A stretch of 64,000 nt of DNA from Psammoneis japonica (GCA_008632985.1 QPGO01000168.1:1-64000), one strand, 5' to 3'. Shown: positions 1 to 64,000, counted from the stretch's first letter. Translations and numbers: made by a program. The notes: generated by a model not told the origin, from the sequence alone.

Positions 1-599
1 CTCTCTGCCGGTGTTGTCAACAATGGGAAAAGAGAGCGGCATTGTGTCGTCAGTGACAGAGGGGGCCCACTTGCACTTGTGTGCAAGCATTGCTTGTGAC
101 CCAACAGAGATGATCCCTCTGTCTGTGCAGGGAATTCCAAAACTCTGCCGTTTTGGCAATCTTTTGCTGGGTTTCTTTTCCACCACTGTGAAGACAAGCC
201 ACTTGCCTCCTCTGCATGCTTGCAGTTGCCCTGCTGTTTGAGCTTTCACAAAACTCACAATGGCAAGCCAAACATTTGTGTCACTTGACAGTTTCAAAAC
301 ATGCACGCTGACCAACTTTTTGCTGCTGCCTGCTGTTAAATCTGGCCGCTGCAGCTTCGCCAATGGGGCAGTGTTGTGCTGACCTCATGCTTGATTTTTT
401 GTCAATTTCCAACTGTGGTGGATTGGCCTCATGGCAAAGATGTCTTGCCTCTCAGTGGATCGTGTCATTCCCACTTAGCCACAGGGATCTCTGTCAGGTT
501 GTGAGCAATGCTTGCACAGATGTGCAAGCAGGGCTCCTCTGCCACTGCTGACAACACACAATCCTCCCGTTTTGTTGTCGACAATGCTGGCAAAGAGAG
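1..599. repeat. Degenerate inverted repeat, arms ~1-120 and ~481-599
   Basis: Reverse complement of 1-120 (agagggatca...agcaatgcttgcacacaagtgcaag...ttgacaacaccggcagagag) aligns with 481-599 (acagggatct...agcaatgcttgcacagatgtgcaag...tcgacaatgctggcaaagagag). Confidence 0.7.
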
Positions 600-3500
600 T
601 TTGCATCGCAACCTTTGCCGCTCTGTCAATGACAATGACGACAGTGCACTGGACACTGATTCACGCCATTGCCGTTTGTTTTTGCAGCTGCTTGCATTGG
701 CGTTGGTGTGCCTTCTGTGCACATCATCAAGATCTCCTCAGGGTGTGCACCAAAGAGATCCAACACCTGCTGCCCCTGCGTGGCACAACAATGTCAAAGT
801 TTTGTTTCATCGTCTCTCACCATGGCGCCTGCTGACACCACCCATTCAAAAACGGCGTCCTCTTGGTGGGCCACTTTGTTGTCCCTGCAGGCTGCCATCT
901 CACCAACATTGGCTGAAGGCACTCCTGTCACTGCCACACCTGATGTGACTGCTCCACCATCACATGCTGCTGCAACAGCAGAGGATGCATTGGAACCTCA
1001 CAATGCACCCACAGCAGAGGATGCTGTTAAGGCTGAAGCGACTCCAGAGGCACATGCTGCGGATCCGGATGCCGGTGTGACACCTGCTCTGTTGGTTCCT
1101 GATGCATCCGCCTCGGAGCAACAGGTGCCACCAGTCATGCACCTCCATCAACACCACCACCACCACCCCCCGAGAAACCTCCTGACCCTCCTCACTCCCC
1201 ACCAACCTCTCCCAAGGCTCTCCTCACCATGTTCAAGAATGGCCTCAACTCTGCTGTTGCACAAACAGACAAGCACAAGCAAGCCCTTGACAAATCTGTG
1301 GACGAGGTTTCCAAGCTGTGGCGGGAGATCAGCGAGCTCCTTTCAGTCACGAGCAAAAGTGTTGAGCACAGATTTGACCCATGCTTCCATCTGCATTGTC
1401 CAAAGCATTGGCTGGCAACATGAGTTTGTCCACTTTGCCCAACACACCTGGTTGTCTGCGACATGTCCAAGCAACATTTTTGCTCATGGAGTGTTTCCAA
1501 AGAGTGGCAGTTGGGAAGCATGCAGACAAGCCTCATCTCACAGGACAGCGACTGGTTGTTTGCATGGGAATTGTTGCCATGCACTGTCTTGACTCAAAGT
1601 TGGAGAAAGCTTGGCTTGGCAATTTCCAACCTCCTGATGATGCAACCTTTCTGTTCATGTTTGCCATGGCTCCTTTTTCCAAGTCCTTCCCTTCAGCTCT
1701 TGGGGTGTTTTCTTCCTTGTGATCTCTCCATTGCACTTGGCATCAGAGACGATCAACCATGCATGCTGTGTGCTGTGAAACATCATTGCCAAAATTCTTT
1801 CTGCAACAAAAGACCAGGGCTTTCCACAGAGTTGTTCAGCCCATGTTTTTTGTTCTGCATTGGCAGAAAGTGGGTGGTGTTTGGCAAGAGCCACAGCCAA
1901 CTCTTCTTCACAGGGAGCACCAAGCTCATGATTTCTTTGTGTTTTCTTGCAACTCTGAGGCACTTGTCTCTGGGAGTTTCCTCCTCTTGCTGCTGTCACT
2001 TGCCCTGGTGGTTGCCTCTGTGTCTTGCACACAGCACTTCTGCATCTTTCAACAGGGAGCTGGCTCTGACAATCACTTCATTGGGCCACATTGGCCACTG
2101 ATGACAGAAAGCAACAGTTTTTGAAAAAAGATGTCTGTCTGTGTCAAGGAGTCAAACCATCCACAACCCATGCAGGCCACAGGTTTCTGGGGGCTCTCAT
2201 CTCCACACCTGTGACTGTCCCAACACTCAGCTCAATCTCATGATTTGCTGCTGCTGTGACATTCATTGTGAAGCAAAGAATGGACAGACATGCGTTTGTT
2301 GTCTCAGACCTTTTTTTTTTGTTCTGTCATGAAAGAACAAAGCACCAGCTGCAAAAGACAATCAACAGACAAAAAATTGAACACACACATGCCAACAAAA
2401 TCATTTTTTGTTCAATGATGTCAGCCAGCCAATGATTGGACCTCCACAAGAATGAGGGGCTTGCTGAGTCATTTGGCCGCCATTGTTGAAAAAGCATTTT
2501 CAACTTTTGCAGAGTTCAAGATTGTCGACATCTTTGTCTTTGTGGATTTTTCATGTGCTTTCTCCTGCTCCAATCTCTCTCTCTCTCTCTCTCTCTGCTT
2601 GCTGTCATTGAGTCAAACATTCAAGCAGCTCAACTCTTTGGCTTTGTCACACACAATGTGAGACAGAGTCATTGTGGTCATGCAGCAGACATGCAACCAC
2701 AGCCACTGTGGCAAAGAGCAGAGCAGCAAGCTTGAGAGCCTCGCCAGTGTGGTTGCTTCTGGTGCTGCTGCCAAAAAGGCAAACAATTCTTTTCCTTTGA
2801 GAAGTGCTGCTGCCAGTTGTCACTTGATGCTGTTTTTGTGATGCATCCATCTCTCTCAGTCCATGTGAAAACTTGTGTGTGTGTGTTCTGCACAATCAGC
2901 TGTGTGTCTGTCACAGAGAGACTCTCTGCATTTTTTTGCTGGCAAAACAAACACACCACAACATTTTGCTGCTGTGAGACACCAGCCACACCAGGAGAGC
3001 TCTGCCTCAATCACTGTGAAACATGTGTGCGTGTGCGCTGTGTGGGCAAAGTGCCAACAACATCACACCACCACATCATGACAAGCACATCATCTCTCAA
3101 ACATCATGCTGACAAGCAACAACAGAGTCAAAAAGCCAACAAAAAAATTGCTGAAATTTTTGTGTGTGGGAAAAACTGTGAAAAAAATGACAACAGTGAG
3201 AGAGCTCTCATCATGAGCCACCGGTGCCACACAATGAGAGAACAAGAAAAAAAGCTGCACACACACAAGTGCTGCCAAAACACTGTGAGCGTTGATTTGG
3301 CACACAAATGAAAAAAAAGAGTCTCGCCACACAGCCCTGCTGCAAAGATGACAATGGGCTCTGATGCTGTGTGGTGCAGCACAACTCTCAACAACAACAA
3401 CAAGGCCAAGAGCCACACAGACAGCATCATGTGTGTGTGCCATGAGAAAAATGAGCTGTCTTTTTTTTTTGACAAACACACACACAAGTGTGTGCCGCGC

Positions 3501-3735
3501 GTGTGATGTGTGACTTCTTGGAGAGAGAAGAGAGACACGTGCTGTTGCAGAAAAAAGCAGTGTGCAGCCATCATTGCTGGATGGTGGAGTGTGTGGGTCC
3601 TCTCTCTGGAGGAGAAGAAAACAAGGAGCTCTGCACCAAACAGAGGACCACTGCCAGCAATTCGGCTCTCTTTTTTGTTTTTTGCAGTGAGAGCGGACGG
3701 ATCGAATGACAGACAGACAGACAGAGCCGCAGTGG
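1..3735. other. TpA- and CpG-eroded degenerate repeat/pseudogene block; source element not identifiable
   Basis: By eye only three TA dinucleotides (337 TTAA, 476 TTAG, 1028 TTAA) in 3.7 kb; TG/CA excess; overlapping Tyr-free Cys/His-rich ORFs in all frames; normal TA resumes abruptly at ~3740. Confidence 0.8.
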
Positions 3736-3838
3736 AAATTATGATCATTGAAATTATTCAGTTCTTTAAATAAAAACATGGAACGGTCATTTTCAACGCC
3801 AACAACACAAAAGCATCACAACAGCAACAACAACCACC

Positions 3839-7150: not shown

Positions 7151-8010
7151 CTAAGAAAGGGCTTCTTCTGCTTCTTTCCCGTCTCCTTTTCCGTCAACAA
7201 TGAGGCTTGCGCATTTTTTCAGATTGGCCTTTTCCGACTTGATCAGTTCTTTACAACGATCTTGAATGACCCACAAGTCAGCGTTACCCTCGATGAATTT
7301 CTCCCAGTCAATAACGGCATTCAACCATCCACGGAAACGTTCGTTCTGACAAAAATGATCCAGCACAACTTCACCTTGCTTTAAGTGCTTTTCTCAGCCC
7401 ACGAGTTGCCTTGTGTCATCGTGCACAACAACAAGTGGAACAAGGTCGCAAGCACGTGATTCTGGGCTTAACGATTTAGCGGCCCCACACCACATTTTGT
7501 CAACGCCCCAATCCGTTGGCTGGAACACATGCCAGGGAGTGAGAGCTTGGTCCAACAACCAGTCTGCAAAGTCTCCTCTCAATTGAGCAAAGGACTGTTG
7601 GACATGCATTGTTTGGATCGGTGAAGACAGTGCAAACTCTGGAACGCTGCACCTCTTCCACAACTGTGCTTCGTGGAATTGATGCTGCTCGTTCTTGTCA
7701 TGTTTTTCCCAGTCGAATGCATCAGCATGGCAGGTGCAATCTTGACTCCATTTGGAACAAACTTTCCATTGGCCAAGAGATGTTGGACTTGTCCGACATC
7801 CGTTGCTGGTGCACTGGTCGCTTCAAGATTGTGGGCCTGAGGAGACAAGAGCTGAGATCATTTCCTCCATGGAGGCACGTCGCTCTGTCGATTGGCCCAA
7901 GTTCATCCAGCGAACCGGCAGAGGCTCGGGCTCATGATGCACGTCAGCCTCGCATTGCCCCTCATCCAGAACTTCAGGTCAGAAAGATGGTTCTCCTCCA
8001 AGCCTGACAC
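7151..8010 (-). pseudogene. Internally deleted paralog of the GT25 gene at 20837-23628
   Basis: PLPVRWMNLGQSTERRASMEE matches PLPIYWINLEQSTERRALMEE; QPTDWGVDKMWCGAAKS and WEKFIEGNADL match the C-terminus. Near 7690-7710 the N-terminal part is joined directly to QFHEAQLW, skipping ~320 codons. Confidence 0.85.
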
Positions 8011-8131
8011 CGATGACGGCACTTCGTCATGTGACTCGACAGGTGCAGACGTGCTGACGCGTTCCAGCCCCAGGTGGGAGCTCGCAGTGCTGACGTGTGA
8101 CAAAAACAATTTTTGTCATCCGTCGCATGTT

Positions 8132-8410
8132 TCACACGTAGATTTCTATGTGTGACATTTAAAAAAAATTGTCCAGACTCGCTGTTTTGCAAAGCCCCAG
8201 ACATTTTACATGACAAATTTATAGAAACAACAATGCGCCAGTTGCATTCTTCAATGTCTGAAGAATGTAACTGGCCAAGTAAAAAATGATGTGCTTCAAT
8301 CATGTGCGAGTTTGTGCGTTCGCAAAATTGCCTCATTTTCTGTTGGCGATCATTGACATTTTAATTGCCGTGTGATTTTACTGCGGAGCTCGCACGTAGA
8401 AGTCTACGGG
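8132..8410. repeat. TA-retaining island bounded by two CGTAGA-N2-TCTA(C/T)G palindromes; possible DNA-transposon end
   Basis: tcacacgtagatttctatgtgtga (8132-8155) and cgtagaagtctacg (8395-8408); the interior has normal TA content while both flanks are eroded. Confidence 0.5.
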
Positions 8411-8666
8411 CCCAATGTCACACGGATTCCCACCCACATCTGGAACGCGTCTGCTGCAGAGCCAGGAGCCAGAGCCCGCCATCAATGCCAACACGAGACA
8501 AGCAATTCTGAATGCCGAATCAAATGTCCGACACTGATGATTGCATTTTGAAAATCAGTTGGGTCACATTAATCACGAGGACACAAAAATGTTCGTGTGA
8601 TGGCATTCAACCAGTCCTTTTCAATTTTTCAAATTTTAAATTTTCATCGCGTGCATTGAGTGCAAT

Positions 8667-9105
8667 GTGCAGCTGCTGACAAGAGCCAATGCATCACGGC
8701 GACATGTTGCAGCCTTTAAATGTCACAAAGGGCGTGACAAAATAACCTTTTGTCTGCATGCATGCTGCGTTGTGAATTCACAGCGGAGTGGTTCATCGCA
8801 ACCATTGGGCAGGAGGCCAGGGGCTCGAAACCCTGAGTGGGAGTTGTCTGCAGCAACGTTGATCACTGTCGAACGCGTGAAACTCTGTGCAGTTCTGCAC
8901 GTTCCTTCGCACGTACCCACACTGTTCCGCCAAAACCGTGCAGCGTCAGCACACGTCAGCAAAGAGCCGCATGGACACGCGACACATGGGGAGGAGTGCA
9001 GTGCACAGCTGCTGACAAGAGTCAATGTATCACGGCGACGTGTTGCAGCCTTTAAATGTCACAAAGGGCGTGACAAAATAACCTTTTGTCTGCATGCACA
9101 CTGCA
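8667..9105 (+). repeat. ~100-bp direct repeat (8667-8768 and 9003-9105)
   Basis: Both copies read agctgctgacaagag.caatg.atcacggcgac.tgttgcagcctttaaatgtcacaaagggcgtgacaaaataaccttttgtctgcatgca. Confidence 0.9.
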
Positions 9106-9108
9106 TAA

Positions 9109-9941
9109 GAGCATCTTCGCCAGTGAGTCGTAAACATAAACATAAACATAGGAACACAACCTAAAAGGACAAGCGAACAGACTGCCCCGTATAAGTTTAC
9201 GATTCTGCACGCGACCATCATTTTCAGTCGATCACAATCGTAGCACATTCGGCCGATGGTTGGGCAGACGTTGAGGTAACAACCAACTCCATACACGTAT
9301 ATCCATAACTAGGAACTAACTGATGGTAGGACGGACTTGTTGAATTTTACATGACGCCATGGCGGCTTTGAACGCAGTATACGACACAAATCACAGTCTA
9401 TTCAAAGATATGTCGACGTCTATCAATAGAGAATAATTCATATTATATGTCTATGTGTTACTATGTTGTGAAAGTCATTCTACATCGCGAAAACAAGCGA
9501 AATGTTATCACACGATTTATGCCTTATTCTCTTCTGACCCCATAAACCCCCCATATGTCGGTTCTCCTCCCATATCTCGATGCGGCCGTATGTAAGTTCA
9601 TAAGATACGACAAACTGTTAATTGTTGGGCCTCTGTAAGGTCCTCTCATCAAGAAAGCGTCGATTGTCGTTTCGTCATGGTGACACGCACTTTCTACTGG
9701 ATTTCTACACCCTTTTTGTACCAGAAATTTACGATTTTCGTTTACGATTTTGGAGGTGGATCGTATCCAAGGCCTGATTTGCGATTCACTTTCATGTGAA
9801 TCGTACGTAAATTCGAAAAGGGTTATTAGCGCAAAAAATATGTTTTCGATCCACCAAAATGATGATTTTTTGTGAATCTCATTCGTATCGGAAGACGTAC
9901 GGACATGTGTTTGTGTTTACGACTCACTGGCGAAGATGCTC
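9109..9941. mobile_element. Non-autonomous PIF/Harbinger (Tourist-like) element, 833 bp
   Basis: Perfect 28-bp TIR GAGCATCTTCGCCAGTGAGTCGTAAACA (9109-9136 / 9914-9941); TAA target-site duplication (9106-9108, 9942-9944); a GAGCATCT start with TAA/TTA TSD is typical of PIF/Harbinger; no transposase ORF. Confidence 0.85.
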
Positions 9942-10413
9942 TAAGGGGCGAATCGAGGGAGGATCGAAGCCGCTGCCATTGACGCCACTCGAAACAGCTG
10001 CGCTCTAACCTTGTTTTGAAATTTTCATTGCTGTCCATTTGGGGTTAAGCAAGGGATCGAAGCCGCTCTGACGCCACTCGAAACACCTTTGCTTTGGCTC
10101 TGCTCCATTGGCGGACAGGCACCACCTCCAAAGCACGTGTGCCGTGTTCTTGGAACCAATGCTGTGACCACACAGTGCATCCATGTCGGAGTCAGATTGG
10201 TGTTTTCAAGGCCTTGAAAAAATCTTGACATTGGCAAAATGCAAACCAAAACCGGAGGGATTGAAAGGCATCACCAAAATGACAGGACAATCTTCAAAAG
10301 ATCGCTCTTCTCGACTGATGCTCTCGGCAGCAGAGCAGATGATCAAAATGTCTCCTTTAAAAAAAGACACCTGTGCATTCACACTGTTAAATTTCTGTGT
10401 CAAGCATGTGTTG

Positions 10414-11180
10414 TCAGCTGCAACTTAGTTGCCAATCCTTGTGTGCAAGCGCGCCTTCCATCTGGCCAAAGTCAGGGCGTGTGAGACTGGCTCCAAACTG
10501 ACCATCATGAGCAAGGTGATCAGCTGTTTCAAGCTTGGAAAAAGTTGCACTCATTCCCTTGGCATTTGGATTTTTTAATTTTTCCTGATGCAACTCAACC
10601 AGAATCTGCCCAACCTTGACCACACACCCCATTCTGTTTTTTGCAAAAAGCCCAACTCAAAATTCTTTCACATCCACCTTGAGACAGCATGTGTGAGAAT
10701 GACCAAGCTCCTTCACAACTGTGGCAATGGAGTTGATTGGAAAGTGAGCTGTGCTCAGTTTGTTTTAGCTGCAAAAGCCACAGTCTCCATGACAGATGCC
10801 ACAAATGCCTTCCCATCCACTGGCTCTCTGATGTTTGGATCAAACGCATGAATCTCACATCCTGATCTGACTGGTTGAACTCGTTCCTCAAAGTCAGGTT
10901 CACTGTTTGATCCCACACTGTGTGCAGTGCAGCCATTGCTGCTGCAGTGCTCATTTTTGACTCCACAAACAATCTTGGTGTTTTGGTCTGCTTGTTGCTT
11001 GTGGACTTGAGCAAGGCCACATGCCCACCTGCCTTCAACTGTGTTGAGCAACACAAGGAGATGGTGACTTTTTAAAATCCCAAAAGCAAGGAAGGCTGAA
11101 ACATGCACCAAATGGCTTTGTTCAGCAAGATTCCAAACTGCTGGCCTTCGCTGTGCATGTTTGACAACCATGCCCATCAC
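10414..11180 (-). pseudogene. Eroded Methyltransf_22 (METTL24/FkbM-like) SAM methyltransferase pseudogene
   Basis: KIVCG...CTAHSVGSNSEPDFEE...CEIHAFDP, then LKVDVKEFE and GQILVELH in successive frames; family pattern CxVYSxGS...FE...CEIHxFDP...LKxDxE...QILxExH. Confidence 0.7.
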
Positions 11181-24350: not shown

Positions 24351-24370
24351 CCCCCCCCCCCCCCCCCCNC
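24351..24370. other. Poly-C run containing an N (24369); possible assembly join
   Basis: Direct observation. Confidence 0.7.
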
Positions 24371-52600: not shown

Positions 52601-55600
52601 AATTGCAGCTTTCTTGCAATTGCTCATGAAGTGTTTTGGGTCATTCATTGTGTGGACATCTTGTCTCGATGGATCTGGGTGAAATCATCACAATCACTTG
52701 AAAGCATCCAACAAAACAGCACACTGCAGAGCAGGACCTTTGGGGGGGGGGGCTGCAACAGTTTTTGTTTTTTGACATCTCAGCACAAAACTTGTTCACG
52801 CAATTTTGGATTTGCTTGCATTGACAGGCAGCACAGTTGCTGTGCCATCCACTTGACAATTTTTGGTTGTTTGCTGACTGGACTTGCAAGCAATTTCAAC
52901 CATGGGGCTTGAAAGAGAGGAGGGAGCAATGCAGACAGCCATGACAAAAGGACAAAGCACAAAGACATCTGAGGCAATGCCTGGTTTTTCATGCACAATG
53001 ATGCAAACCACATCTGCTGTGGTGGGTTTGAGGGTGCATGTGCTGCGCTGTCTTGCTGGCCAGAAGATGTCAGAAATTGATGAACAAAAAATGTGAGCAA
53101 AGTGTGACACACAAAGACAAAGCACAAGGCATCCAACAAGAGGCTGCTTGTGTTGCATGGACAAGCAACAGCATGGGCCATTTTTGTTGTGAAAATCCCA
53201 GTGGCACAACCTTTGCTGACCAGAAAATGCTCAGTTTTTTTGTTGTGTCAGTTCAACAAAAAACCACAGCACACACAAGGTCCCCAAGCCAAGTCTGAGC
53301 ATGGACCAAAAGCAATGCTGGTGGGTGTGTTCATCCATGTCTCCAACCACAAACCACAATTCGCGCAAACCAAAAATGGCACCATGCCGTCACCATGAAC
53401 TCGTCCATTCTTACACCAACGGATGTTGTGACTGAGAAGGTGAGAATGCCGAGACAGGTCAACAAGACAACGCTCAATGCGATGATGTGGTTGAAAATTT
53501 GATCTTTGTTTTTTGTTGTGCCTTGTGGACAGCCTTTTGACTCATGACATTTTTGATGCCTCTTTCTCTCTTCCTCAGCTTGCAAAGTAGGATTCTCATC
53601 AACGCGCTGATCCATCAACTTGACACCGGATACAGACAACGAAGAATGTTTTTATGACACGTTGCTGTGATTCTTATAATGTATCGTCCGCACTTTGAGT
53701 CGTTATGGACGACGCTTTTGGGTCGCGCGACAACATCAGATTTCAATGCCGACAAGAGAATCGTCATGTGTTCGGTTTTGAGGGTGTTTGAGGGTGAAGA
53801 ATCTCAGACACAAGTGTGATAGTTTCATCATTGTAAAGTAGAACAATGCCATTAGCGACATCCAAGTGTTGCAGCCATTTCATTTTATTCTAAGATAGAA
53901 CTGGTCATTTTGAGCGGTGAAATTTTGTCAACATTTCATCTTTAACTCTGCTTGGGCATGTCAAATCACATGATGGCTGGGCACACATTTAACTTTGATG
54001 CTGCTTTTTCAATCCTATTGTTTTATTCACTCAAGCATCCCACACAGGTCGACAAATCAGTCGATCTCTGAAATGGCCGATCGCACAAAAAAAATCACGT
54101 GCGAAGTCAGTTCCCCCGATTTTTCTCACGCAAATGATGGAGTTAGAACGCCGTTCTTTTTTGGTGTGAGCTCTTTATACAATGAATGATGCGCACATTC
54201 TTTCAAAGTAGTCAGATTCGGTGAAAGAAACAGCAGAACAGTCTCTCCAATGCACCAGAACAACAACAACGAGCAGTTAGCTGTCAGTTTCACTCCAAAA
54301 AATGCCGCTTTCGAGACAGCGCTTTTCTTGTGCGCACCCTTCAACCAATGAGAATAACGGCTGGCTTTTCAAAATAAACATGTCTGTGGAAAGAAGAAAT
54401 GAAAAATCGGGGGAAAGTCCAGTCAGATTTGCTCGCACAAAAAGCACGGCGACGGAAAAGGGACAGACGAAACGTCTCACCTCCGTGTGCGCATTTCTCA
54501 CCTGGGATGAAAACACATCCTCAAAGATGATGCAACAACTGGCTCTTGAGGATCTGCCAGCTGTGGGCACACTTCTCCAGCCCTGGGTGGGACATTGTGT
54601 GAGGACATGGGCCCACAGAGTTCTCTGTGTGAGCTCTGCAGTTGACACATTGGGCAGTGAGCTCATTTGTTTTTGACACTTGAGTGACCAAGTTTGCAGC
54701 ACAGTTGCACCTTTCAACACTCAAAATTTTGAAAATCTGCCTCTGAGATGAGTTGCCACACAAGGTGATGGAAAGTGTGCAGCTTGTCCTGTCAAGTGTG
54801 CACTTGCAAGCCCCACACACAGAAGGTGATGTGCAAATTGTGCAGACTGGACTTCTCAACTGCAGAGTTGGTGATGGCATTTTTGAAAATGACAGCTCTT
54901 GTCTGAGGACATCAGATGAAATGAAATGCTTGAACAGAGCAGTTGAGCAGTGCTGCTCAATCCAATGTGAAAAGCGCCCATTGTGAAAAGTCAACAGCAG
55001 AAAGTCTTCACATTGTGCAGCACTTTCCAGTCTGGGAAAGTTGCAAACAAATGGTGCTGGAGTCACAACTGTGCTGTCCAGCACATTTTTTGTGATGACA
55101 TGATGTCACTCAGCTCTCCTTGTCTGAATCAGAGTTGTTGTCATCCCACAGGCATCATCAAGAGTGCCCAGCTGCAGCTCCTCAAAGAAAGGAGAAAGGG
55201 TGCAGGTTGTCAGGAATGCAGTCATGAAGTTGCCTTCACCAAAAAGCACTGACCTCCTTGACAGCAGAAATGAGGAAGATGACAGCCAGATGACATCATT
55301 CTCAGCACTGTGCAAAAATGGCAAGCATGTTGAATGTGCCCCACCCACTTGCTGCTTTGCACTGCAAAACCCACCACTTTAGTTCAAGGTGGTTCATGTG
55401 GATTTAAAAGATCTGTGAAATCATTGCCTTTCTTGGAAATCTCATGATTGCGTGTTTGAGGGACAAGGGACCTGAGTGCAATGGCAAAGTCCACAATGGG
55501 TTTGAGGTTTGAGAGGCAGCAAACTGATCTGCCTGTGCACACCATCATGACTGCCCAGATGACAGGCTTGGGGCCAAACTCATGTCAAACACTCAGCGGC

Positions 55601-56821
55601 TCTGTTTGCGCTGCAGTTGATTTCAAACGCCATTGTTGCTGTGCTTCACCATGGCAAAAGACACCCAAAATCGACGCCAAAAACAGAAAGGAAGCATGTC
55701 GTTGCAAATTGTGCAATTTGCTGAACACAAAATGTTCCAAATGAATGAAAACGTTGATGTTCTGTTGTCCTGCCTGGTTGAACATCTGAGCCCACACTTT
55801 CCACATCAGAGTGCACGATGTCACAATGTCTGCACACATGATGAAAATGTGTTGCCACATCATAAAATCCACTCATCTGCACATGACGGTTTTTGTCATT
55901 TGGTCAATCATTGATCTCCTGCTGTTCTTCATGTTTGAACACAGATGTTTTTTAATTTTCATGCTCTGCCTTTTTCACAACAACTGACGATCTTTGACGA
56001 CAAGCCAAACATTGCAATTGCATGCAATGAAATTTTCATCATGCAAAGTGTGCGCCAATTGTTCAATCAACAACTGTGCTCCAATTTGCCTGGTCGTCCG
56101 CATCGTCCTCTTCATTCCGTGTGTCTTGTCCACTCTCTTGCAAGAATTTCAAATGTGCCGCTGCCGCGTTGGATGTTTCCTTGTCACCGTTCCAAAAAAG
56201 CCACACTGCATTTCTTGCATTTGGGCGAACATCATCAAGAGGAAGAGGTCCCTTGAAATGCTGAATCGCATCGCTGCTCCCCTCTTGACGTCGTGTCGTC
56301 AGCTTCTTTTTGTCTTTCTTCATTTTGCCCGTCCTGTTTTTCTCTTCCTTCCTCGTCTTGGCCCTGCCTGTTTTCACCATCTCCGGCGCCATCACCTTCA
56401 TCTCTTGTTGTTTTTTTTTTTCTGTTGTGTCACTTTGTTTTGGATCCATGTTTCTGACTTCTCTCCATGCTGTCTCCATTTCCGAATGTTTCTTTGTGAT
56501 TGTTCGCATGCGTCACTTGAAGGCACCCACGTGTTTTTCACGCACCTTAACGCGCATGTAGAAATCCATGTTGTTTTCCAGCACACACACCCTTTCTCCT
56601 GATGCTTTCCACACAATGTTTTCTTCCATCAATTCTACACTCCGCATTGCCCTTTCCCGGCATGATCTCACATCGGATTTCCCTGGGAGAAGTTGCACAC
56701 GCGTCTGGCAGGTTTTTGTGTTTAAAACTCCAAATCGCACCAGGCGCGCATGTAACTTCTCCCACACACCACTCTGGCACATTTCTGCAGAAACCAGATT
56801 TTTGGTGTTGGAACAGCAACC

Positions 56822-59800
56822 ATGGTGCCGCGTGACCCATCGGTCGCCTCTCTGTCGCAATGCAACAATGATTCCTGCCTCAAGGAGGCCGCATTTGAAT
56901 CTCTCTTTGCCAATGGTTTTGGAGTGATCGATGGCAACAAGCAGAGCCGTGTCAAAGCGACAATCGAGACTGTGAAATCCAAGGTTCAGTTTCACCGCGA
57001 CTCCACTTATGATCCCTCTCCGAATTGGATCGCGCTTGCCCATGTGTGGCAAAAGTCGAAGGGCAGACCTCATTTTTTTGTAGAACTGATGGCTGTGAAC
57101 CGCATTGTTGCAAAGGAACTTGGGCACAAGAGCTTGCTGCACTTTCTTTCCGCAAAAGGATGGAGTCATTCCAGTCAAGGCGCCAAACATCCTCATGCGT
57201 TGGAGTGTCGCCGTGCTCCCAAAGCAGAGGATGTGAAAGTCGTCGGCGACAAGGCAAAATCAACAGACATTGCAACCAACATGATGGCAAAGGTTTCCAT
57301 GTTGTGCAAGCTTCTCCATGATCCCGGATTGTGCGACCCAAAGGGAGAGCCACTTGTCAAGCACATCAAGCTGAGAAGTTTTGAAGGAAAGGTTTTGCGT
57401 TGCGCGCAATGCCTTCACATTGGTTTTTTGATTCTTCGTGACAAGATTCTGCCGCATGCACCTGAAAGGAATGGTGATTACGATCATTGGCTGCACTCCC
57501 TGTTCGGCGAATGTGACGAGACATCAACTTGCATCAACTTTTTGGAGAATTTCCTGGCTCTTGGTCACCATGAGATGACCAAAGACGAATGCCCTGTGTC
57601 CTTCCCTGAATTTGTAAAGTCGTTGTTCCACCAACACAAACATTCTTGGGAAAAGCCCATGCGACTGGCGATGCTTGATGTCGAGCGAGAACAAATGCAC
57701 GCAACACATGTTGATGAGACTCTTTTAAGATGTGTGAAAATTGATCGTGTGGTTTCTGCCGCTGACAATTCCGGCAAAAGCAAGGCTGCAAGGGATCATT
57801 TTGAGGCCATGTGGAAAGCCAGGCTTCATGACTTTGCCACTCAGCACAAGAAGAAAGAAATCGGCAATGCAATTCCATCCATTACGAAAAATGCTCGGAA
57901 ACGAAAAAATCCAAATGGTGTGAATCCATCACATTGTTTGATTGATTGTTTGTGCTCCTCTTCTCATCTCCAATTCTTCTGTTCTTCTTGCCACCTCTTT
58001 AGCCACCTCCCTTTGCTCCTCAAGCCCCAGTCTCAAAAACCCCAAAGATGGTGAACCTTCTGATGTTTCTCAGAACGAATCGCTGATTCTCCAAGATGTG
58101 CCGACTCTCAAGGAACAATTTGAATGTTCCCAAACAAAGTGGCCGACCCTCGGTGCAACTTGTCAGTCACCTCCTCCTCCGCCAGACAATTTCACAAAAG
58201 AAGAGCTTGTGAAAGTGTTTCCTGAACCATCTCCATTTGCGATTCCGGGTGAGGTGAAGTCACAACATTCTCACCTTGTCGTCTTTGAGGAAACCCCCAT
58301 TTCCGGCTCCTTCAAGAGGAACTGTGTCAAGCACCAGTTGTTCCACAGCATCTCTGATTTCCACTTGGTGAATCACCTCCGCAAGTTTGTGCATGGATTT
58401 GAAAACGGCACAGCTCCCAATGATCCGACGCAAGAATCGATGGTTGCGATTGCTCACCCGACCCAGTCAACCTCTCATTTTTCCAACGTGGTCACTCATT
58501 TGCAACACACGGACAAGATGCGTCAGAAATGCTTTTTTGGATTGCAACTCAGAGTGTCGTCGATGCTCCGTGCAGTGTTGGAACATGGCGAGCCAAACGA
58601 AAAAAGGGATGGACCAGAATGCAAGTTGCGCTGTTGGATCTGTTTTGGTTGTTGTGGCCAGAATTGCGAAGTCGCAGATGGTGAGTTAGCTGAAGTGGGA
58701 CCTGCTCACAAGCCTGGTGCTGTCTTTGGCAGGGACAAGTGGGAGAAGCTTCCAAAGGATGTGCAGGCAATGACAGCCTCAATCTTGGACGCCACGCAAC
58801 TCTGCGAGGACGAAATTAATCTTGTTGCATTGAAAGAAATGCGCTCCTTCCATGACCCGCACCGCGACAGTCTTTTCGCGGCTGAGCTCCGTAAGATGGT
58901 TGGAGCCAAGCATGTTAGAAGGGAAGGCGTGGAAATTCAAGTTAAGTGCACCTCATCGTCCGGCAAAAAATCCGTTAATTCGAAAACCGAGCTGCACATT
59001 GACAAAGAGGATTGTGACATGGATGGGTGCACCAAGACTGGTGCTCTTTGCTCATCACTGCGAGACGCTGTTGGTCGCTCTTGGTCGTTGAAGGTCATCA
59101 CTGCATCCAAAGGCAATGCTGGAAACTGCGTCAGCTCGGCACATGGGCATGCCGAGTTCCGATCGCGTGTGCATGGTCATTTCGCAAAACTTGATCTGTC
59201 ATGTGCTGCAGAAATGATGAGATGCCGTGGCCCTTGTCGTCCTCCGTCGGGCAAGCTGGCCCACAGAAACATCAAAGATTTTTTCCTTGACCCTCACTCT
59301 GTGTGGGTGGAAGAGGAAATTGGCAAGCCAAATCTTCCGTCCGACACAGTTGAGTGTCCCGTCATTGTCATGCCAAGGAAACGTCTTCCGTTTGCCATCG
59401 TGAAGGACTTTAATTTCTCATGTGGTTGTTCGGCAATCATTGACAACCTCGATGAGGTTGGTGCACACGATTGCTTTTGTTGCACCATTGTGGCTGGGTG
59501 TCAAACCGGATTCTCCCGTTTTTGCCACTTGTTGTGCAACACAGATGCTGTGAAGCGTCCTTTCGTGGCTGGCGATCGTGCCCTTCATTGCTTCAGAGAA
59601 GCTGCGAGGCCATTCGGCAGCATTGCGGGGGATCGCAACAACCGATGCATGCAGAGCCCGGGACTCGATTTCGAGGAGGTTCATGTGGCAGAGTGCGGGA
59701 CAAAACTCAACGGTTTGATGGATTTGCTTGTTGGCGGACTGGTTGTTGTCATCGACTGCATCAATGACAATGTTGGCAAGCCAACGTTCAACCACAAGCT

Positions 59801-60308
59801 GATCGAGGACATGTTTCAAACCGTGGTCCAAACATGGGATCACACAGGTGCTGATCATGGAGAGTTCAGATGCATGAACTCTGCACCGATGTTGATGCTG
59901 TGTGGCACAGGGATCCATCCTCACCCTGACCTTCGTAATCTTGTCCATCCGGCAGCCAAGTTGGGAGCGGCGAAGCAAATGGAGGAAATGAAGGTCCCGG
60001 TGGAGGAGCGCGATTTACTCTTGGAATGGACAGAGGGTGATTTTGATTTGGAAGACTGTGGAAAGAATGGTCCAGAGTCTTCACTGTGTGACCTGAGTGC
60101 AGCTCATGAAAAGATGGGAATCTGCGATGTCTTTTGTTGCGGACAGCATCTGTTGCTCTTGTTCTCTGATGGGCAATCAATGATCAAGCGGTTTGGAAGG
60201 CATGAATGGGAGCCAGCCCCACTCGTGTCGATTGATGAAGTTCGAGCCGAACTGGAACGGCAAAGAGAGGTTGCTTTTTCATGGCAATCACATTTGTTTT
60301 TTGTCTGA
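56822..60308 (+). pseudogene. Large eroded gene(s) of unknown family (410-aa and 788-aa ORFs, possibly joined by an intron at ~57920-58025)
   Basis: Protein-like composition in a single frame; the 788-aa ORF has no Tyr and a Cys/His excess; CpG largely retained. Confidence 0.55.
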
Positions 60309-60379
60309 TTGTGCTGACATTGTCACATTGATTTCTCGTTCTAACAGGAAGAAGGCCACCGGTGATTTGTTGTCATTCG

Positions 60380-61361
60380 CAATGAACAAAGGTGACGATT
60401 GCGAGGAGGAGTCAATTGACGAGAAAACAAGCAAACTTCCAACCACTTACATGGGTGAAGAGGACAAAAGCAAAGAGCCTGTTGACGATGAGCACAACCA
60501 AGTTGCACATTGCTCCGAGGGTGAAGAGGACCACAGCAACTTGGGAGATTGTTTCACAAGTGACGAAACCAACGGGGAAACACACAATGTGCTGTGGTTG
60601 GGGATGACCCGTCCGCTCAATGCAAGGCAACTATCTTCTCAAGAATTGTGCTCTGAGAAGGGGGTGGCCTTAGTGTCATCTGACCAACACAGGTGAGATG
60701 AGGCCCACGCAATGGCATTTGAGGAATCTAACAAAACAATCACAAACGTCGTTCTGACAGTTTCTCTCCAAGATGGACATCCTGATCTGCACTTAAATTG
60801 CAATGTGAAAGCAAGAGATTTCGTCAAGAGAGTCAAGCAGCAGTTTGAGAAACTTGTTGATTTCGACAATCATGGGTTCGACCAAATCATGTTGGACTGC
60901 TGCTGGATGCCAGATGGAGAGTGGTGCAACAGTCATTTGGGACAACTCAATTTTTCCAAAATCTGGCTGATCTTCGGGCCTTGCTCTCCAAAAACGAAGA
61001 AGGGGGGGACATGGTGCTTCCCTTTGCTCTTGCAACCTTCTTCCAGGTTGTCAAACAATGGAAGAAATTGTTGGCTGTGTTCGACATGTGCAAAATGGAC
61101 AAGGATGCTGCAAAGAGCCGTGTGAGCATGTTCTTTGCAAGCAACCTTACAACCCAAGAACAACGAGAACAGTGGTTGGGAAAGCCTTCCAATCAGGAAG
61201 AAGCTCATCTTGGAGTTTCCGAAGAAGACATCAGAATGAAAGCAACGGAAGGTGCTCGTGCCACACTGCTTCACGTGTGCCGCGATGACTTTGCCAATTC
61301 TGAAAGGATCAAATTCATCATGTTTGCAAGAAAGAGTCAGGTGGTCACTGTGAGTGAATGA
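60380..61361 (+). pseudogene. Eroded gene with a possible Rossmann/SAM-MTase-like pattern
   Basis: NVLWLGM ... VLTVS ... FDQIMLDCCWMP (inferred DYYW) ... LLSKNEEGGDMVLPF across a stop and a frameshift. Confidence 0.35.
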
Positions 61362-62064
61362 CAGATTGATGCACGCATCCCATTTTAGAAACAAATCTGA
61401 CCAACACTTCCTTCTGTCCTGTGCAGCCCAAACAAATGGGGCCTTTTCTTGCACTTCTGCTGCTCCCGGACATTGTTCACAAACCAAAACATTGTCCCCA
61501 ATTGCTTCAACAGGGACAACCCGTAACTCAGGTGAGCACTGAGTCTCCTCAGGCGTTGAAAGCCAAGCTGCCAGCGACTGACCAAGTCTGTGTGCTGATG
61601 CCGTTGCCTCACAGTTCTCTGGTCAATGTTGACAGGGCCTTCATCAAGACTCATGCTCGTCGTCCTTGTCTTGTGGATGAGAAGGGAAAAGAAGAACAAC
61701 ACGCAAAAAATGGCAGGAAAATGGCAAACATTGCATTGTCTTCCAGATTTGGATGATTCTTGTGGGTGTGACGTGTCTGCATTTTGATTTTTTGTCTGGC
61801 ATTTACAATGAATGTTGTTCTTTTTATTTGCTGTCAAAACAAAGGACATTGTCTCCGTTGGAACGCAATGACAGCCACATCAAAAAGCAAGTTGGACTGT
61901 TCATTGTTGTGTGCAAACACATTTTCAAATTTCAGTGTTGCTGACAATGATTTGTGCAATGTTGTGGAGAAAAACAGAGTGGCTGGCTGTCTCAACATGA
62001 CCCAGACGATGGTTGCACTGTTGAACAGTGACACTGCTCTCATTGTTGCCGTGCAAAGATCAAG

Positions 62065-63228
62065 ATGTCGTCTCCAGCACCACCGGCAAAGAAGAGAAAG
62101 AAAAATGAGACTGTTGAGCCAATGAGCCCGATGCTTCAGGCAGTGTTGAAGAGAACAGGCACGCAGGCAGCGCATGGTGCATTGAAATCAGAAGCAGAGA
62201 AGGTGGCTAGAAATGATCTCTTTCCACAGGTGAAGTTTCTCAGTCCATCAGAATTGGCAAGCAATGGGAGCGTCTCAATGTTTGTCAAGAAACAGATTGC
62301 TGGTGGCAACATGAACACTTCAAATTGGTCAGGAACTTGGGAGGAATGGGCAAAAAAGGTGGCAAAAAGGCAAATTGACAATCGCAGAAACACGGTGTGT
62401 TCGGCTGTTGGGGCGGAGGCAATGGCCCGTAAGTCAAGTGACCAATGTGTGTGGTTTGAGAGTTGCGCGCATCTCACAAGAAGATGATGGTGATGCTTTG
62501 TCCATGTGGGCATTGTCGCCAAGGAAGAGGGAAAGGAAATCAAGGCGGCAGTCAGGAGGAAAAAGCAAAACAGGAAAAAGTCAAGCCGTGACAAGAATGA
62601 AGAGAATGATGTCCCGTTTGTGCCGACATGGGATCCGTTTGGCCTGGACACTGTCACCGGCGGCAAACGAAGGAACAAGCAGGCGTGCAAGTGGTTCTGT
62701 GATCACATCCCACCTCAAACCAAGCAAAAGCAGGCATGGAGTCGCACCGTCAAAACTGGGAATGCACAGGTCTCACAGTTGTTTGCGGCAGGTGATGAAG
62801 CTTTGGCGCCATTGGCCATGGAGAATTGTTGGCAGGTGTGGGCACACAGGAACAAGGAGGAGACGGTGGAAGAATTGGGTGAGGAAATGGAGCCCGAAGA
62901 AACAAGGCCTGCCCCTCGGCACACGAAGCCAAAGAAACAACGAGAGTCTTGGGGAGACGACGGAATCATTCGGTTCAACGATTTGTGCACAGAGGTGACG
63001 AAAGACAGAGACTCCAAGGAGGGCAAGGAGTTTGAAAAGTGGCATGCGGAGATCAAGAAAAGCGAGTGCGAGAAGTCCGGAGAAGCAAAAAAGAAGAAGA
63101 AGATGGCACCGACCGGTGATGCGGAGAAGGTGAAGGCAATGAACAGCCCAGTGGTGGAGAGCAGCAGGGACGACAATGGTGATGACGATGAGCAGGAGGA
63201 AGGCACAAAAGGAAAAACAAACAACTGA
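62065..63228 (+). pseudogene. Eroded putative DNA-transposon accessory protein
   Basis: NLS-like PAKKRKK, LFPQVKFL, GDEALAPLAMENCW, WGDDGIIRFNDL; putative splice donor gtaagt at 62429; the association with transposons is recalled, not verified. Confidence 0.4.
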
Positions 63229-64000
63229 GGAGACAAATCTGATGAAGACGAGTCCAATGAAAATGAGTCCGATGATGATTGTTGGCTCAGTTTGAGAGAG
63301 TTGCAGCAAGAAAATGTGCACACAGTTGGCACAGCACTCGGTCATTGCACTGCAGATGCAACAAGGAATTGACTTGACCGATGAAATGTTTTTCTCGTTT
63401 AAAATGATGTTTGCAAAAATTGACAAACCAAGGTTTGTGTGGCAATGCAATGACGCATTGGCACATGGCAACAAGGTGGAGGCAGAAATGGTGATGTGGA
63501 CACAGTGAAAAACAGCGCACACAATTCTTGGCAAGTTGTTGCGGCGTTGGTGCACCAAACTTGCAACCAGAGGTTGGCCTGTCATCATGTGACAACAACA
63601 TTTTGCAACATTTTAACAAATTGTCATCACGCAAATCCACACATTTTTGACATTTCGTGCACTCTGATGCGTGTCTTTGTGGCGACTGCATTTGGTGCGT
63701 TTGGCTGGCGGCGACTCAGTTTCTGTGCCTGCGGGGTTTTGAGTGTGTGTCTTCGTTCGAAAAGTGATGCCATGGATTCGGGTGAAGTCTAAAGAAACAA
63801 TTAAGGTGTAGAAATGTGGCACAAACCTACAGCACGACACATGTGTCATCTACCGGCATATGCTGAGGTCAAGAAAACAAAAGAAGAAATGGCGACATAT
63901 TTTTCTCCTATGTGGCAAAACATAGAAATGTGTGACAATAATTGTTTAGATTTAAAGGGCTAAAAGGCGGACGTTGGAGTTGCTCGACAATGTTTAAGTA

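What the first reader, a model, noticed from the sequence alone, without database searches (positions are those of the whole stretch)
1..63790. Domain-wide TpA->TpG/CpA hypermutation of repeats: a candidate 'reverse-RIP' A-to-G genome-defence system
Seen: blocks at about 1-3735, 7480-8130, 8420-9100, 9950-20420, 24160-35230, 43150-46120, 49880-53400 and 54380-63780 almost lack TA (three by eye in the first 3.7 kb), while the gene blocks between them are normal. The eroded blocks hold transposons, foldbacks, tandem duplications and dead genes. Conserved Tyr codons read Cys (TGY) or His (CAY), which fixes the direction as A:T->G:C on both strands. Established: fungal RIP and 5mC deamination are C->T and create or ignore TpA, so neither explains this. 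Inference: a heterochromatin-targeted adenine mutator, either a TadA/ADAT-like DNA deaminase (TadA recognises UAC; derived base editors favour TA) or pol eta-like error-prone repair (A->G at WA). I know of no described eukaryotic system of this kind; novelty needs a literature check.
Basis: partly seen in the sequence, partly recalled or inferred. Interest (0 to 1): 0.95.

Follow-up and report, generated by a model that had tools for sequence, protein, structure and literature searches.

The report
TA-erasing hypermutation of silent DNA
About two-thirds of this 64-kb stretch, mostly dead mobile elements, has had nearly every TA step rewritten to TG or CA by a targeted mutation process of a kind first reported in 2026 in another marine alga, and seen here at much larger scale.

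Summary
Eight sharp-edged blocks (42.2 of 64 kb) have TA obs/exp 0.05, against 0.55 in the gene blocks. TG and CA each rise by 30/kb, matching the loss of TA (-37/kb) plus CG (-21/kb). Accurate reads of run X1 reproduce unique TA-free stretches at the same word depth as the genes, so this is not a base-calling artefact.

Direction and timing were tested three ways. At 33 conserved Tyr columns in two elements, the codons read 18 Cys, 1 Trp, 5 His, 5 Phe and 4 Tyr. An LTR pair had near-normal TA at insertion and lost it independently in each LTR. A 4-copy tandem array has 16 sites split TG/CA.

The process is therefore DNA-level, post-insertional, acts on both strands and is TpA-specific. Surviving TAs reveal a 3' neighbour hierarchy: TAT > TAC > TAG > TAA. 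Single-copy relics are hit, while a young, RNA-covered multi-copy MITE is spared, so the trigger is not RIP-like copy counting.

The kind is already described, in a 2026 preprint on Bigelowiella natans (mutation-accumulation lines). This window probably comes from a different lineage (diatom-like, not proven). The enzyme is unknown, and adenine deamination cannot be told apart from thymine modification here. Verdict: a real new member of a very recently described kind.

The parts
1..3740 (.). TA-poor block 1 (3 TA in 3.7 kb). CpG is also nearly gone at 1501-3000. The block ends about 100 bp upstream of the ATG at 3839.
   Evidence: X1 contigs with 0 other letters lie on 1-509 and 656-1735, and word depth over 1335-3335 is 52-66, like the genes.
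7477..8139 (.). TA-poor block 2 (no TA in 662 bp). It overlaps the upstream part of a diverged GT25-like paralogue fragment.
8405..8914 (.). TA-poor block 3 (5 TA, obs/exp 0.15)
10046..20437 (.). TA-poor block 4: a single-copy, CpG-depleted relic (10046-12900) followed by the Copia element
   Evidence: word depth 45-65 over 10006-12006; an X1 contig on 9915-11140 has 0 differences
12944..20005 (-). Copia-type LTR retrotransposon. LTRs at 12944-13219 and 19730-20005 show 22 differences in 276 bp. The pol frame 16883-13275 has 1203 codons with only two stops, both TGA, and the RT motif reads CVDDL. Internal TA obs/exp is 0.10 and CpG obs/exp about 0.8.
10758..11288 (-). Methyltransf_22-like ORF fragment inside a TA-free, single-copy stretch (a dead or silent gene)
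   Evidence: E 4.6e-05
24151..35235 (.). TA-poor block 5 (11 kb), with unidentified content apart from the tandem array
27385..29805 (.). Tandem array of 4 copies of about 605 bp, 87-90% alike. 16 dinucleotide columns are split TG/CA among the copies.
43430..46131 (.). TA-poor block 6, CpG-depleted
49873..53588 (.). TA-poor block 7, CpG-depleted. It starts about 270 bp upstream of the ATG (49600) of the minus-strand oxidoreductase gene.
54375..63790 (.). TA-poor block 8, holding a second, unclassified element
56756..60305 (+). Two long ORFs (432 and 788 aa) of an unclassified, probably mobile-element family. The 788-aa ORF has no Tyr at all, and its 8 conserved Tyr columns read 3 Cys, 3 His and 2 Phe.
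9108..9942 (.). Contrast case: an 835-bp non-autonomous TIR element (35-nt TIRs, 97% complementary) with normal TA (59 TA, obs/exp 0.82) and CpG obs/exp 1.4. Its summed word depth is about 600-1100, and an RNA-type contig lies on it.
7209..7683 (-). Fragment paralogous (70% identity) to the GT25 gene at 21790-23628. A block edge at 7477 runs through it.

Best explanation
A real, DNA-level, TpA-specific hypermutation has converted nearly every TA step to TG or CA (A:T to G:C on either strand) in discrete domains. These domains hold dead transposons, their relics, a tandem array and gene fragments; the genes between them are left alone. It acts after insertion or duplication, independently in each copy. 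In the LTR pair it runs about 3.5-5 times faster per site than CpG decay, and roughly 50-fold faster per base than other substitutions. It also has a graded preference for the base 3' of the target A: T > C > G > A.

It is the same kind of process as the TpA to TpG/CpA hypermutation of silent integrated viral DNA seen arising de novo in Bigelowiella natans. Shown here: existence, direction, timing, strand symmetry and context. Inferred: that an enzyme is guided by a silent-chromatin or foreign-DNA mark rather than by copy number, and that its chemistry is adenine deamination to inosine by a TadA/ADAT2-like deaminase. I give that chemistry about one chance in three, against a thymine-centred alternative.
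For: Composition: TA -36.8/kb and CG -20.7/kb, against TG +30.0/kb and CA +29.9/kb. TA obs/exp is 0.03 where CpG is gone and 0.095 where CpG is kept, so TA loss does not depend on CpG loss.

Not an artefact: run X1 holds 97% of sampled words. It gives 0-difference contigs on unique TA-free stretches, at word depth 52-66, the same as the gene bins at 45-63.

Direction: relatives of the Copia have a median of 4.2% Tyr and 1.1% Cys, while this copy has 0.65% and 4.7%. Its 25 conserved Tyr columns read 15 TGY, 1 TGG, 2 CAC, 3 TTC and 4 TAY. The second element has 0% Tyr, with 8 columns reading 3 Cys, 3 His and 2 Phe. Control columns for Phe, Trp and Leu are kept.

Timing: the LTRs carried 7-9 TA at insertion (obs/exp 0.44-0.56, like the genes) and now carry 2 and 5, with sites differing as TA/TG, TA/CA and TG/CA. 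In the tandem array, 16 columns are TG/CA mixtures with no CG or TA left, against 3 mixtures that keep a CG. The outcomes total 35 TG to 29 CA.

Specificity: surviving TA fall from TTAA 0.35 to ATAT 0 (0 found, against 67 in the normal blocks). An additive 3'-neighbour model fits with chi2 4.1 on 6 df, against 202 on 9 df for uniform survival.

Precedent: B. natans mutation-accumulation lines.
Against: X1 is marked as a possible source of the assembly and its platform is not on record, so no independent individual or amplified DNA confirms the bases.

I could not build a family consensus. Of the 9 rows shown for the Copia (the best-supported ones, where all other laid copies differ from this one), at least 7 are CpG in the others against TpG/CpA here, and none is a TA site; 1031 rows were not shown. 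Part of the internal TA loss could therefore have been inherited from an already edited source copy.

Polarity rests on 33 Tyr columns, one LTR pair and one tandem array. The Copia shows 16 TG to 2 CA at Tyr codons, where the context model expects 62% TG (P about 0.01). A strand-symmetric DNA process does not predict this, and the second element does not share it.

5 of 29 changed Tyr codons are TTY (A to T), which pure deamination does not give, although Tyr to Phe may also be a tolerated older change.

Chromatin state and the enzyme were not observed. The organism is not established, so if it is B. natans itself the finding is simply already known.
Confidence: 0.8

Rival explanations
1. Same targeted process, but thymine-centred. 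A TET/JBP-like oxidase (or another T-modifying enzyme) marks T in TpA within silent chromatin, and the modified base (5hmU/5fU-like) mispairs with G, giving T to C. The context order is then A > G > C > T for the base 5' of the target T.
For: TA is self-complementary, so every result here fits this equally well. From recall only: thymine hydroxylation in dinoflagellates and base J in kinetoplastids favour T followed by A, and 5-formyluracil gives T to C plus some transversions. That would also allow the TA to TT/AA outcomes seen.
Against: No direct evidence. No modified base was measured. The preprint's authors favour adenine deamination and found an ADAT2-like candidate gene.
Confidence: 0.2
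2. Artefact: the genome really has TA at these sites, but a modified base in silent chromatin is read as G or C by the sequencer or polisher.
For: The blocks are sharp-edged and nearly saturated, as an epigenetic mark would be. The only DNA run that holds the sequence may be the assembly's own source.
Against: X1 contigs match exactly at about 50x word depth. That depth is not halved in TA-free stretches, as it would be if the two strands read differently. TG and CA outcomes are interleaved, and they differ between tandem copies and between the LTRs. The Tyr to Cys/His pattern sits in frames that otherwise stay open and conserved. A base that pairs like G in vitro would also be fixed as G at the next replication (inference).
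Confidence: 0.04
3. RNA-level A-to-I hyperediting (ADAR- or ADAT-like) of retrotransposon transcripts, fixed by reverse transcription.
For: The Copia coding region shows a sense-strand bias: 16 TG to 2 CA at Tyr codons, P about 0.01 after allowing for context.
Against: The LTRs were TA-normal at insertion and diverged afterwards. The tandem array, single-copy relics and gene fragments are hit, and on both strands. G is not the favoured 3' neighbour, unlike ADAR (ADAR preference recalled). At most this contributes to one element.
Confidence: 0.05
4. Error-prone repair synthesis by a pol-eta-like polymerase at WA motifs in silent chromatin.
For: A to G dominates, with some A to T (5 of 29 changed Tyr codons are Phe), as in phase-2 somatic hypermutation (recalled).
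Against: AA, the other WA motif, is not depleted: obs/exp 1.27 inside the blocks vs 1.14 outside. In B. natans 230 of 231 events were transitions at TpA.
Confidence: 0.06
5. No hypermutation: the blocks arrived TA-poor (foreign donor composition) or were shaped by selection against TA.
For: The Copia is also GC-richer (57%) than two metagenomic relatives (40-46%).
Against: The LTRs were TA-normal at insertion. Independent TG/CA outcomes occur among tandem copies. Catalytic and conserved Tyr are destroyed. Unrelated sequence types share the state.
Confidence: 0.03

Closest known systems
TpA to TpG/CpA hypermutation of integrated viral DNA in Bigelowiella natans (Mettrop et al., bioRxiv 10.64898/2026.01.13.699255; I read the abstract, Results and Discussion and ran a term search; its supplements were not open to me)
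   Same: Only TpA is hit and the outcomes are TpG or CpA. The process is confined to discrete regions of foreign or mobile origin. The long-term signature is TpA depletion with CpA+TpG enrichment in clusters enriched for RT and DDE domains. The enzyme is unknown.
   Different: There it was seen de novo in mutation-accumulation lines, at about 6e-7 per site per generation. Its main targets still keep much TpA (Rho 0.45; 3.3% of dinucleotides), and only 124 clusters of at least 3 kb were found in about 95 Mb. Here depletion is near saturation (obs/exp 0.05) over 66% of a 64-kb window and includes a very high-copy Copia family. CpG decay runs alongside it. A 3'-neighbour hierarchy and a spared young MITE are also seen here; the preprint's main text has no occurrence of 'context', 'flanking' or 'trinucleotide'. 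The organism here is probably different: long intron-poor genes, and TA 4.0% in the normal blocks against the 6.0% they report genome-wide.
Repeat-induced point mutation (RIP) of fungi
   Same: Near-saturating, dinucleotide-specific transition mutagenesis that kills mobile elements and leaves a block-wise compositional scar.
   Different: RIP is C to T, mostly at CpA, and it creates TpA; here TpA is destroyed and GC content rises. RIP needs duplicated sequence; here single-copy stretches are hit and a multi-copy MITE is spared. The RIP description is from recall plus abstracts listed.
Editing of retroelements by ADAR (A to G) or APOBEC (C to T) in animals (PMC4866542, seen as a search listing only)
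   Same: Deaminase-type hypermutation of mobile elements. ADAR prefers a 5' U (recalled).
   Different: Those act on RNA or on reverse-transcription intermediates, on one strand, and only on retro-copies. Here resident DNA of any kind is hit after insertion, on both strands.
CpG decay through 5-methylcytosine deamination
   Same: It also yields TG/CA and is present in the same blocks (CG obs/exp 0.49 overall, down to 0.04 in some 500-bp windows). The private CpG to TpG/CpA changes of this Copia copy are of this kind.
   Different: It cannot remove TpA. TA loss is just as deep where CpG is kept.

Membership tests
TpA-targeted A:T to G:C hypermutation of silent foreign DNA (B. natans type) | Mutated sites are TpA, giving TpG or CpA | tested here: met
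   TA -36.8/kb against TG +30.0/kb and CA +29.9/kb, with CG -20.7/kb. Tyr codons read TGY or CAY. TG/CA split columns occur in the tandem copies and the LTRs.
TpA-targeted A:T to G:C hypermutation of silent foreign DNA (B. natans type) | Almost exclusively transitions | tested here: inconclusive
   24 of 29 changed Tyr codons are transitions and 5 are TTY. Two LTR columns pair TG or CA with AA or TT. Tyr to Phe may be an older tolerated change.
TpA-targeted A:T to G:C hypermutation of silent foreign DNA (B. natans type) | Confined to discrete regions of viral or mobile origin, with other DNA at the normal rate | tested here: met
   Eight sharp-edged blocks hold a Copia element, an unclassified element, a tandem array and relics, while the genes between them have TA obs/exp 0.55.
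TpA-targeted A:T to G:C hypermutation of silent foreign DNA (B. natans type) | Arises de novo at about 1e-7 to 1e-6 per site per generation, and in only some lines | not testable with these tools
   This needs mutation-accumulation lines. Only relative rates from one LTR pair are available: 0.69-0.94 per TA site, 0.20 per CpG site and 0.007 per other base.
TpA-targeted A:T to G:C hypermutation of silent foreign DNA (B. natans type) | Targets are transcriptionally silent (true of the NCLDV region, not of the virophage region, in the preprint) | tested here: inconclusive
   RNA-type contigs of X2 lie on the gene blocks and on the spared MITE.
Fungal RIP | C to T at CpA, creating TpA and lowering GC | tested here: not met
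   TpA is removed, and GC is 49.7% in the blocks against 45.8% outside.
Fungal RIP | Triggered by sequence duplication | tested here: not met
   TA-free stretches 1335-3740 and 10006-12006 have single-copy word depth. The multi-copy MITE at 9108-9942 keeps TA at obs/exp 0.82. Caveat: the relics may once have been repeats, and the MITE may be very young.
ADAR-type RNA hyperediting fixed by retrotransposition | Sense-strand A to G only, in retro-copies only, identical in both LTRs | tested here: not met
   Both strands are hit (35 TG to 29 CA; 3 Cys to 3 His). Non-retro sequence is hit, and the LTRs diverged at TA sites after insertion.
Pol-eta WA-motif mutagenesis | Both TA and AA are targeted | tested here: not met
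   AA obs/exp is 1.27 in the blocks against 1.14 outside.
TadA/ADAT2-type adenine deaminase acting on DNA | Target A preceded by T (U33-A34 in tRNA, recalled) | tested here: met
   TA specificity. This fits the family but does not identify it.
TadA/ADAT2-type adenine deaminase acting on DNA | A deaminase gene (extra paralogue or chromatin-reader fusion) in the genome, and inosine intermediates in the DNA | not testable with these tools
   No whole genome is held, and none of the 50 ORFs scanned in the window has a deaminase domain.

The most novel reading that the evidence does not exclude
A chromatin- or foreignness-guided TpA base-editing genome defence is shared by distant algal lineages: Rhizaria (B. 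natans) and, if this window is from a diatom-like stramenopile, Stramenopiles. It would be run by an as yet unidentified enzyme acting on resident double-stranded DNA with a TAT > TAC > TAG > TAA preference. That would make it a natural adenine (or thymine) base editor which, together with CpG methylation decay, drives all silent DNA toward a TG/CA-rich, stop-poor end state.
Probability: 0.4. Interest if true: 0.9.

Novelty: new member of a known kind. Interest (0 to 1): 0.72.

Why it matters
Apart from fungal RIP, genome defences that mutate resident DNA are almost unknown in eukaryotes. The only precedent I found for a TpA-specific A:T to G:C system is one 2026 preprint on one species.

This window shows the end state of such a process at large scale, probably in a second lineage. 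It adds testable specifics: a four-step neighbour hierarchy that any candidate enzyme must reproduce, rates relative to CpG decay, sharp edges at gene promoters, and independence from copy number.

There are also practical consequences:
- TE annotation and homology searches fail on such sequence, because Tyr becomes Cys or His.
- ORF finders over-call in the blocks, because only TGA stops remain.
- Composition-based scans could map the system across protists.
- The enzyme, if found, would be of interest as a natural base editor.

Tried and rejected
- Whole-genome look-up: none is held.
- Earlier findings of this scan: nothing by place, words or sequence.
A protein search with ORF 37674-38816 found nothing, and no paper mentions the two DUF families. 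'Diatom-like' therefore rests on intron-poor genes, an NDVLCGRGG-type DUF6824 domain that I recall from diatoms, and marine-metagenome relatives. It is not tested.
- RNA evidence: no listed holder is on record as RNA. X2 behaves as RNA (a GT..AG joint at 5644 to 5748) but has no contig on TA-poor bins.
- Family consensus from laid contigs: only 41 of 1072 difference rows were shown, so there was no consensus and no polarised family spectrum.
- Metagenome scan for relatives' DNA: only 2 loci came back, enough for a rough composition baseline only.
- GT25 paralogue pair as an internal control: about 70% identity and too few TA sites to say anything.
- Strand-coordinated runs of TG or CA in the tandem copies: none evident.
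- TG versus CA counts per kb as a strand test: balanced, and confounded by base composition.
- The unclassified 788-aa family: no Pfam, PHROG or PDB match.
- A Vsr/MBD4-like biased mismatch repair (recalled from E. coli CTAG rarity) was considered and set aside, because CTAG is among the better-surviving contexts here (0.13).
- UV TA photoproducts were considered and set aside. They are not known to give mainly A to G (recall), and they would not explain sharp-edged domains.

Full report
**Observation.** The window as a whole has TA obs/exp 0.24, with TG 1.54 and CA 1.53. The deficit is not diffuse. There are 1028 TA in all, and 82 gaps of 150 bp or more between them, the longest 2712 bp. Eight blocks (1-3740, 7477-8139, 8405-8914, 10046-20437, 24151-35235, 43430-46131, 49873-53588, 54375-63790) total 42.2 kb, or 66% of the window. 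They hold 138 TA (3.3/kb), against 874 in the remaining 21.8 kb (40.1/kb); the script dropped 16 TA at block edges or window ends. Obs/exp inside the blocks is TA 0.05, CG 0.49, CA 1.71 and TG 1.68. Outside it is 0.55, 0.97, 1.19 and 1.25. The books balance: TA -36.8/kb and CG -20.7/kb, against TG +30.0/kb and CA +29.9/kb. Of the 79 500-bp windows lying fully inside blocks, 29 have CpG obs/exp below 0.3 (mean TA 0.03) and 29 have CpG at 0.6 or above (mean TA 0.095). So TA loss does not ride on CpG loss.

**Not a reading artefact.** One public run (X1) holds 97% of the sampled words of 43001-53000. Laid on 1-20000, it gives contigs with no differences over unique TA-free sequence (1-509, 656-1735, 9915-11140). 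Its word depth there (52-66 over 1335-3335; 45-65 over 10006-12006) equals that of the gene bins (45-63). If the two strands of a modified TA were read differently, depth would be halved, and it is not. X1 may be the assembly's own source and its library type is not on record. This therefore rules out an assembler or long-read base-calling artefact, but it is not an independent individual.

**What the blocks hold.** Block 4 contains a Copia-type LTR retrotransposon on the minus strand, with a 276-bp LTR pair at 12944-13219 and 19730-20005 and an RVT_2 hit at E 5e-23. One reading frame of 1203 codons aligns end to end with 1150-1270-aa relatives at 53-61% identity and has just two stops, both TGA. 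Its RT motif reads CVDDL. Summed word depth over it is a thousand-fold that of unique sequence. The tool warns that this is not a copy number, so I say only that the family is highly repeated. Block 5 holds a 4 x 605-bp tandem array. Block 8 holds two long ORFs of an unclassified family: 114 relatives in 1.8 billion representatives, with no Pfam, PHROG or PDB match. Stretches 1335-3740 and 10006-12006 are single-copy by depth and are the most CpG-depleted, which suggests old relics. Large foldbacks were not found.

**Direction.** 120 relatives of the Copia protein, from marine metagenomes, have a median of 4.2% Tyr and 1.1% Cys; this copy has 0.65% and 4.7%. At 25 columns where at least 75% of 47 long relatives have Tyr, this copy's codons are 12 TGC, 3 TGT, 1 TGG, 2 CAC, 3 TTC, 3 TAC and 1 TAT. 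Conserved Phe, Trp and Leu columns are kept (16 of 17, 12 of 12 and 37 of 39). The 788-aa ORF of the second element has no Tyr at all, where its relatives have 2.5-4.3%. Its 8 conserved Tyr columns read 3 Cys, 3 His and 2 Phe. TA was therefore ancestral and was lost to TG or CA, with TT as a minor outcome.

**Timing and level.** LTRs are identical at insertion. The pair now differs at 22 of 276 positions:
- 8 columns are CG against TG or CA.
- 3 columns are TA against TG or CA.
- 2 columns are TG against CA.
- 2 columns pair TG or CA with AA or TT.
- 3 are other single changes.

Two TA are still shared. That implies 7-9 TA at insertion (obs/exp 0.44-0.56, the level of the genes), against 2 and 5 now. 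It is a lower bound, because identical parallel outcomes are invisible. Per site-copy the loss is 0.69-0.94 for TA, 0.20 for CpG and 0.007 per other base. In the tandem array, 16 dinucleotide columns are TG/CA mixtures with no CG or TA left, against 3 mixtures that keep a CG. Since many CpG survive in that block, most of the 16 must descend from TA. The outcomes are 35 TG to 29 CA, with no runs by strand. An alternative X1 contig over 2279-3353 differs from the window partly by adjacent CA/TG double changes. The process is therefore post-insertional, acts on resident DNA, and hits either strand.

**Specificity beyond the dinucleotide.** Survival of TA in the blocks, relative to the normal blocks, depends strongly on its neighbours:

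| Context | Survival |
|---|---|
| TTAA | 0.35 |
| CTAA | 0.25 |
| CTAG | 0.13 |
| GTAA | 0.10 |
| GTAC | 0.06 |
| CTAC | 0.05 |
| ATAA | 0.025 |
| ATAG | 0.02 |
| ATAC | 0.008 |
| ATAT | 0 (0 found, against 67 in the normal blocks) |

In a four-parameter model, each of the two A's of a TA step is hit at a rate set only by its 3' neighbour. The fitted rates are T 3.13, C 1.72, G 0.97 and A 0.52, and they reproduce all ten classes (chi2 4.1 on 6 df, against 202 on 9 df for uniform survival). Read on the other strand, this is an A > G > C > T preference for the base 5' of a target T. The loss of AT (-16/kb) and gain of GC (+22/kb) in the blocks are what TAT/ATA and TAC/GTA conversions would produce (my inference).

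**What is hit and what is spared.** Block edges are sharp. One lies about 100 bp upstream of the ATG at 3839, and another about 270 bp upstream of the ATG at 49600. An 835-bp TIR element at 9108-9942 (35-nt TIRs) sits between TA-poor sequences yet has 59 TA (obs/exp 0.82) and CpG obs/exp 1.4. It has word depth about 600-1100, and an RNA-type contig lies on it. Single-copy relics are hit and this multi-copy element is spared, so the trigger does not look like copy number. It looks like a state of the DNA: silent, old or marked. That last step is inference.

**Literature.** Seven searches gave one relevant report: Mettrop et al., bioRxiv 10.64898/2026.01.13.699255. I read its abstract, Results and Discussion. 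In B. natans mutation-accumulation lines, 231 of 302 nuclear mutations fell in two integrated viral regions. All but one were A to G or T to C, all the GC-ward ones fell on TpA, the rate was about 6e-7 per site per generation, and only some lines were affected. The genome also has 124 TpA-depleted, CpA+TpG-enriched clusters and a low-TpA gene set enriched for RT and DDE domains. The authors propose an ADAT2-like DNA adenine deaminase. The main text contains none of the words 'context', 'flanking', 'trinucleotide' or 'diatom', and I could not see its supplements.

**Same organism?** I cannot name the organism. Several things argue against B. natans:
- The genes are long and intron-poor: single ORFs of 488 and 612 aa, and two introns in about 3 kb of transcript. 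B. natans is intron-rich (recalled).
- TA is 4.0% of dinucleotides in the normal blocks, against the 6.0% they report genome-wide.
- Their 5% cut-off of Rho 0.43 would catch much ordinary sequence here.
- 66% of this window is depleted, against a small fraction of their genome.

A DUF6824 domain and the Copia relatives suggest a diatom-like stramenopile, but that is recall, not a test.

**Mechanism.**
- Shown: a TpA-specific, A:T to G:C, DNA-level, domain-limited, near-saturating process with a graded neighbour preference, running beside ordinary CpG decay.
- Inferred: an enzyme guided by a chromatin or foreign-DNA mark.
- Open: the chemistry. Adenine deamination to inosine (TadA/ADAT2-like; T before the target A fits U33-A34, recalled) and thymine modification (TET/JBP-like) predict the same sequences.
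- Disfavoured: pol-eta-type WA mutagenesis, because AA is not depleted. ADAR-type RNA editing cannot be the main cause.

**Unexplained.** The Copia shows 16 TG to 2 CA at Tyr codons, where context predicts 62% TG (P about 0.01), and the second element does not share this. TA to TT accounts for up to 5 of 29 changed Tyr codons. Two environmental relatives from other Copia lineages show the same selective damage: P0172 has 9 of 19 conserved Tyr columns as Cys or His, and P0238 has 4 of 19. Their source is unknown.

**Verdict.** The RIP-like 'repeat' trigger and the pol-eta option are weakened. The novelty claim is overtaken by a 2026 preprint. What remains of value is a probable second lineage, the saturated end state, the neighbour hierarchy, the relative rates and the spared MITE.

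Noticed in passing
window 9108-9942: An 835-bp non-autonomous TIR element (35-nt TIRs, 97% complementary; possibly TAA target duplications, read by eye). It has normal TA and high CpG, is moderately multi-copy by word depth, and is covered by an RNA-type contig. It looks like a young, possibly active DNA transposon lying between TA-free stretches.
   Followed up: partly
window 56756-60305 (+): Two long ORFs (432 and 788 aa) of a protein family with 114 relatives in the 1.8-billion-protein library but no Pfam, PHROG or PDB match. Probably an unclassified mobile-element protein.
   Followed up: partly
window 13275-16883 (-): Tyr codons of the Copia went to TGY or TGG 16 times and to CAY only twice, more than the context model predicts (P about 0.01). 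The two His lie together at the 5' end. This may be a transcription-linked or RNA-level bias in this one element.
   Followed up: partly
proteins P0172 and P0238 (relatives): Two environmental Copia proteins from other lineages (61% and 57% identical to this one) have 9 and 4 of 19 conserved Tyr columns replaced by Cys or His, while their Phe, Trp, Leu and Asp columns are kept as usual. The same process seems to act on other elements, in this or another genome.
   Followed up: partly
window 48134-49600 (-): An intron-less DRL-type NAD(P)H oxidoreductase gene. Its named relatives are bacterial (Verrucomicrobiota and Bacteroidota, 50-63% identity), and its closest hits (82%) are unnamed metagenome proteins. 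It looks like a gene acquired from bacteria.
   Followed up: no
window 39853-42797 (+): Three consecutive genes, each with a DUF7467 domain (a tandem gene family).
   Followed up: no
window 24369: The single N of the window follows a run of 18 C, which suggests an unresolved homopolymer length.
   Followed up: no
window 4747-4861 and 5645-5747: Run X2, listed as 'DNA?', carries spliced contigs: a GT..AG joint at 5644 to 5748, and one contig split at 4746/4862. It is therefore in effect a transcriptome, and it shows two introns of about 103-115 nt in the gene at 3839-6750.
   Followed up: partly
window 21460-21860: Direct repeats with a period of about 146 bp (78-83% alike) inside the normal-TA gene region upstream of the GT25 domain, probably a repeated protein segment.
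   Followed up: no
TA-poor blocks in general: With TAA and TAG gone, only TGA stops remain, so long spurious ORFs appear on both strands (for example 15528-17027, antisense to the Copia). ORF-based gene callers will over-predict here.
   Followed up: no
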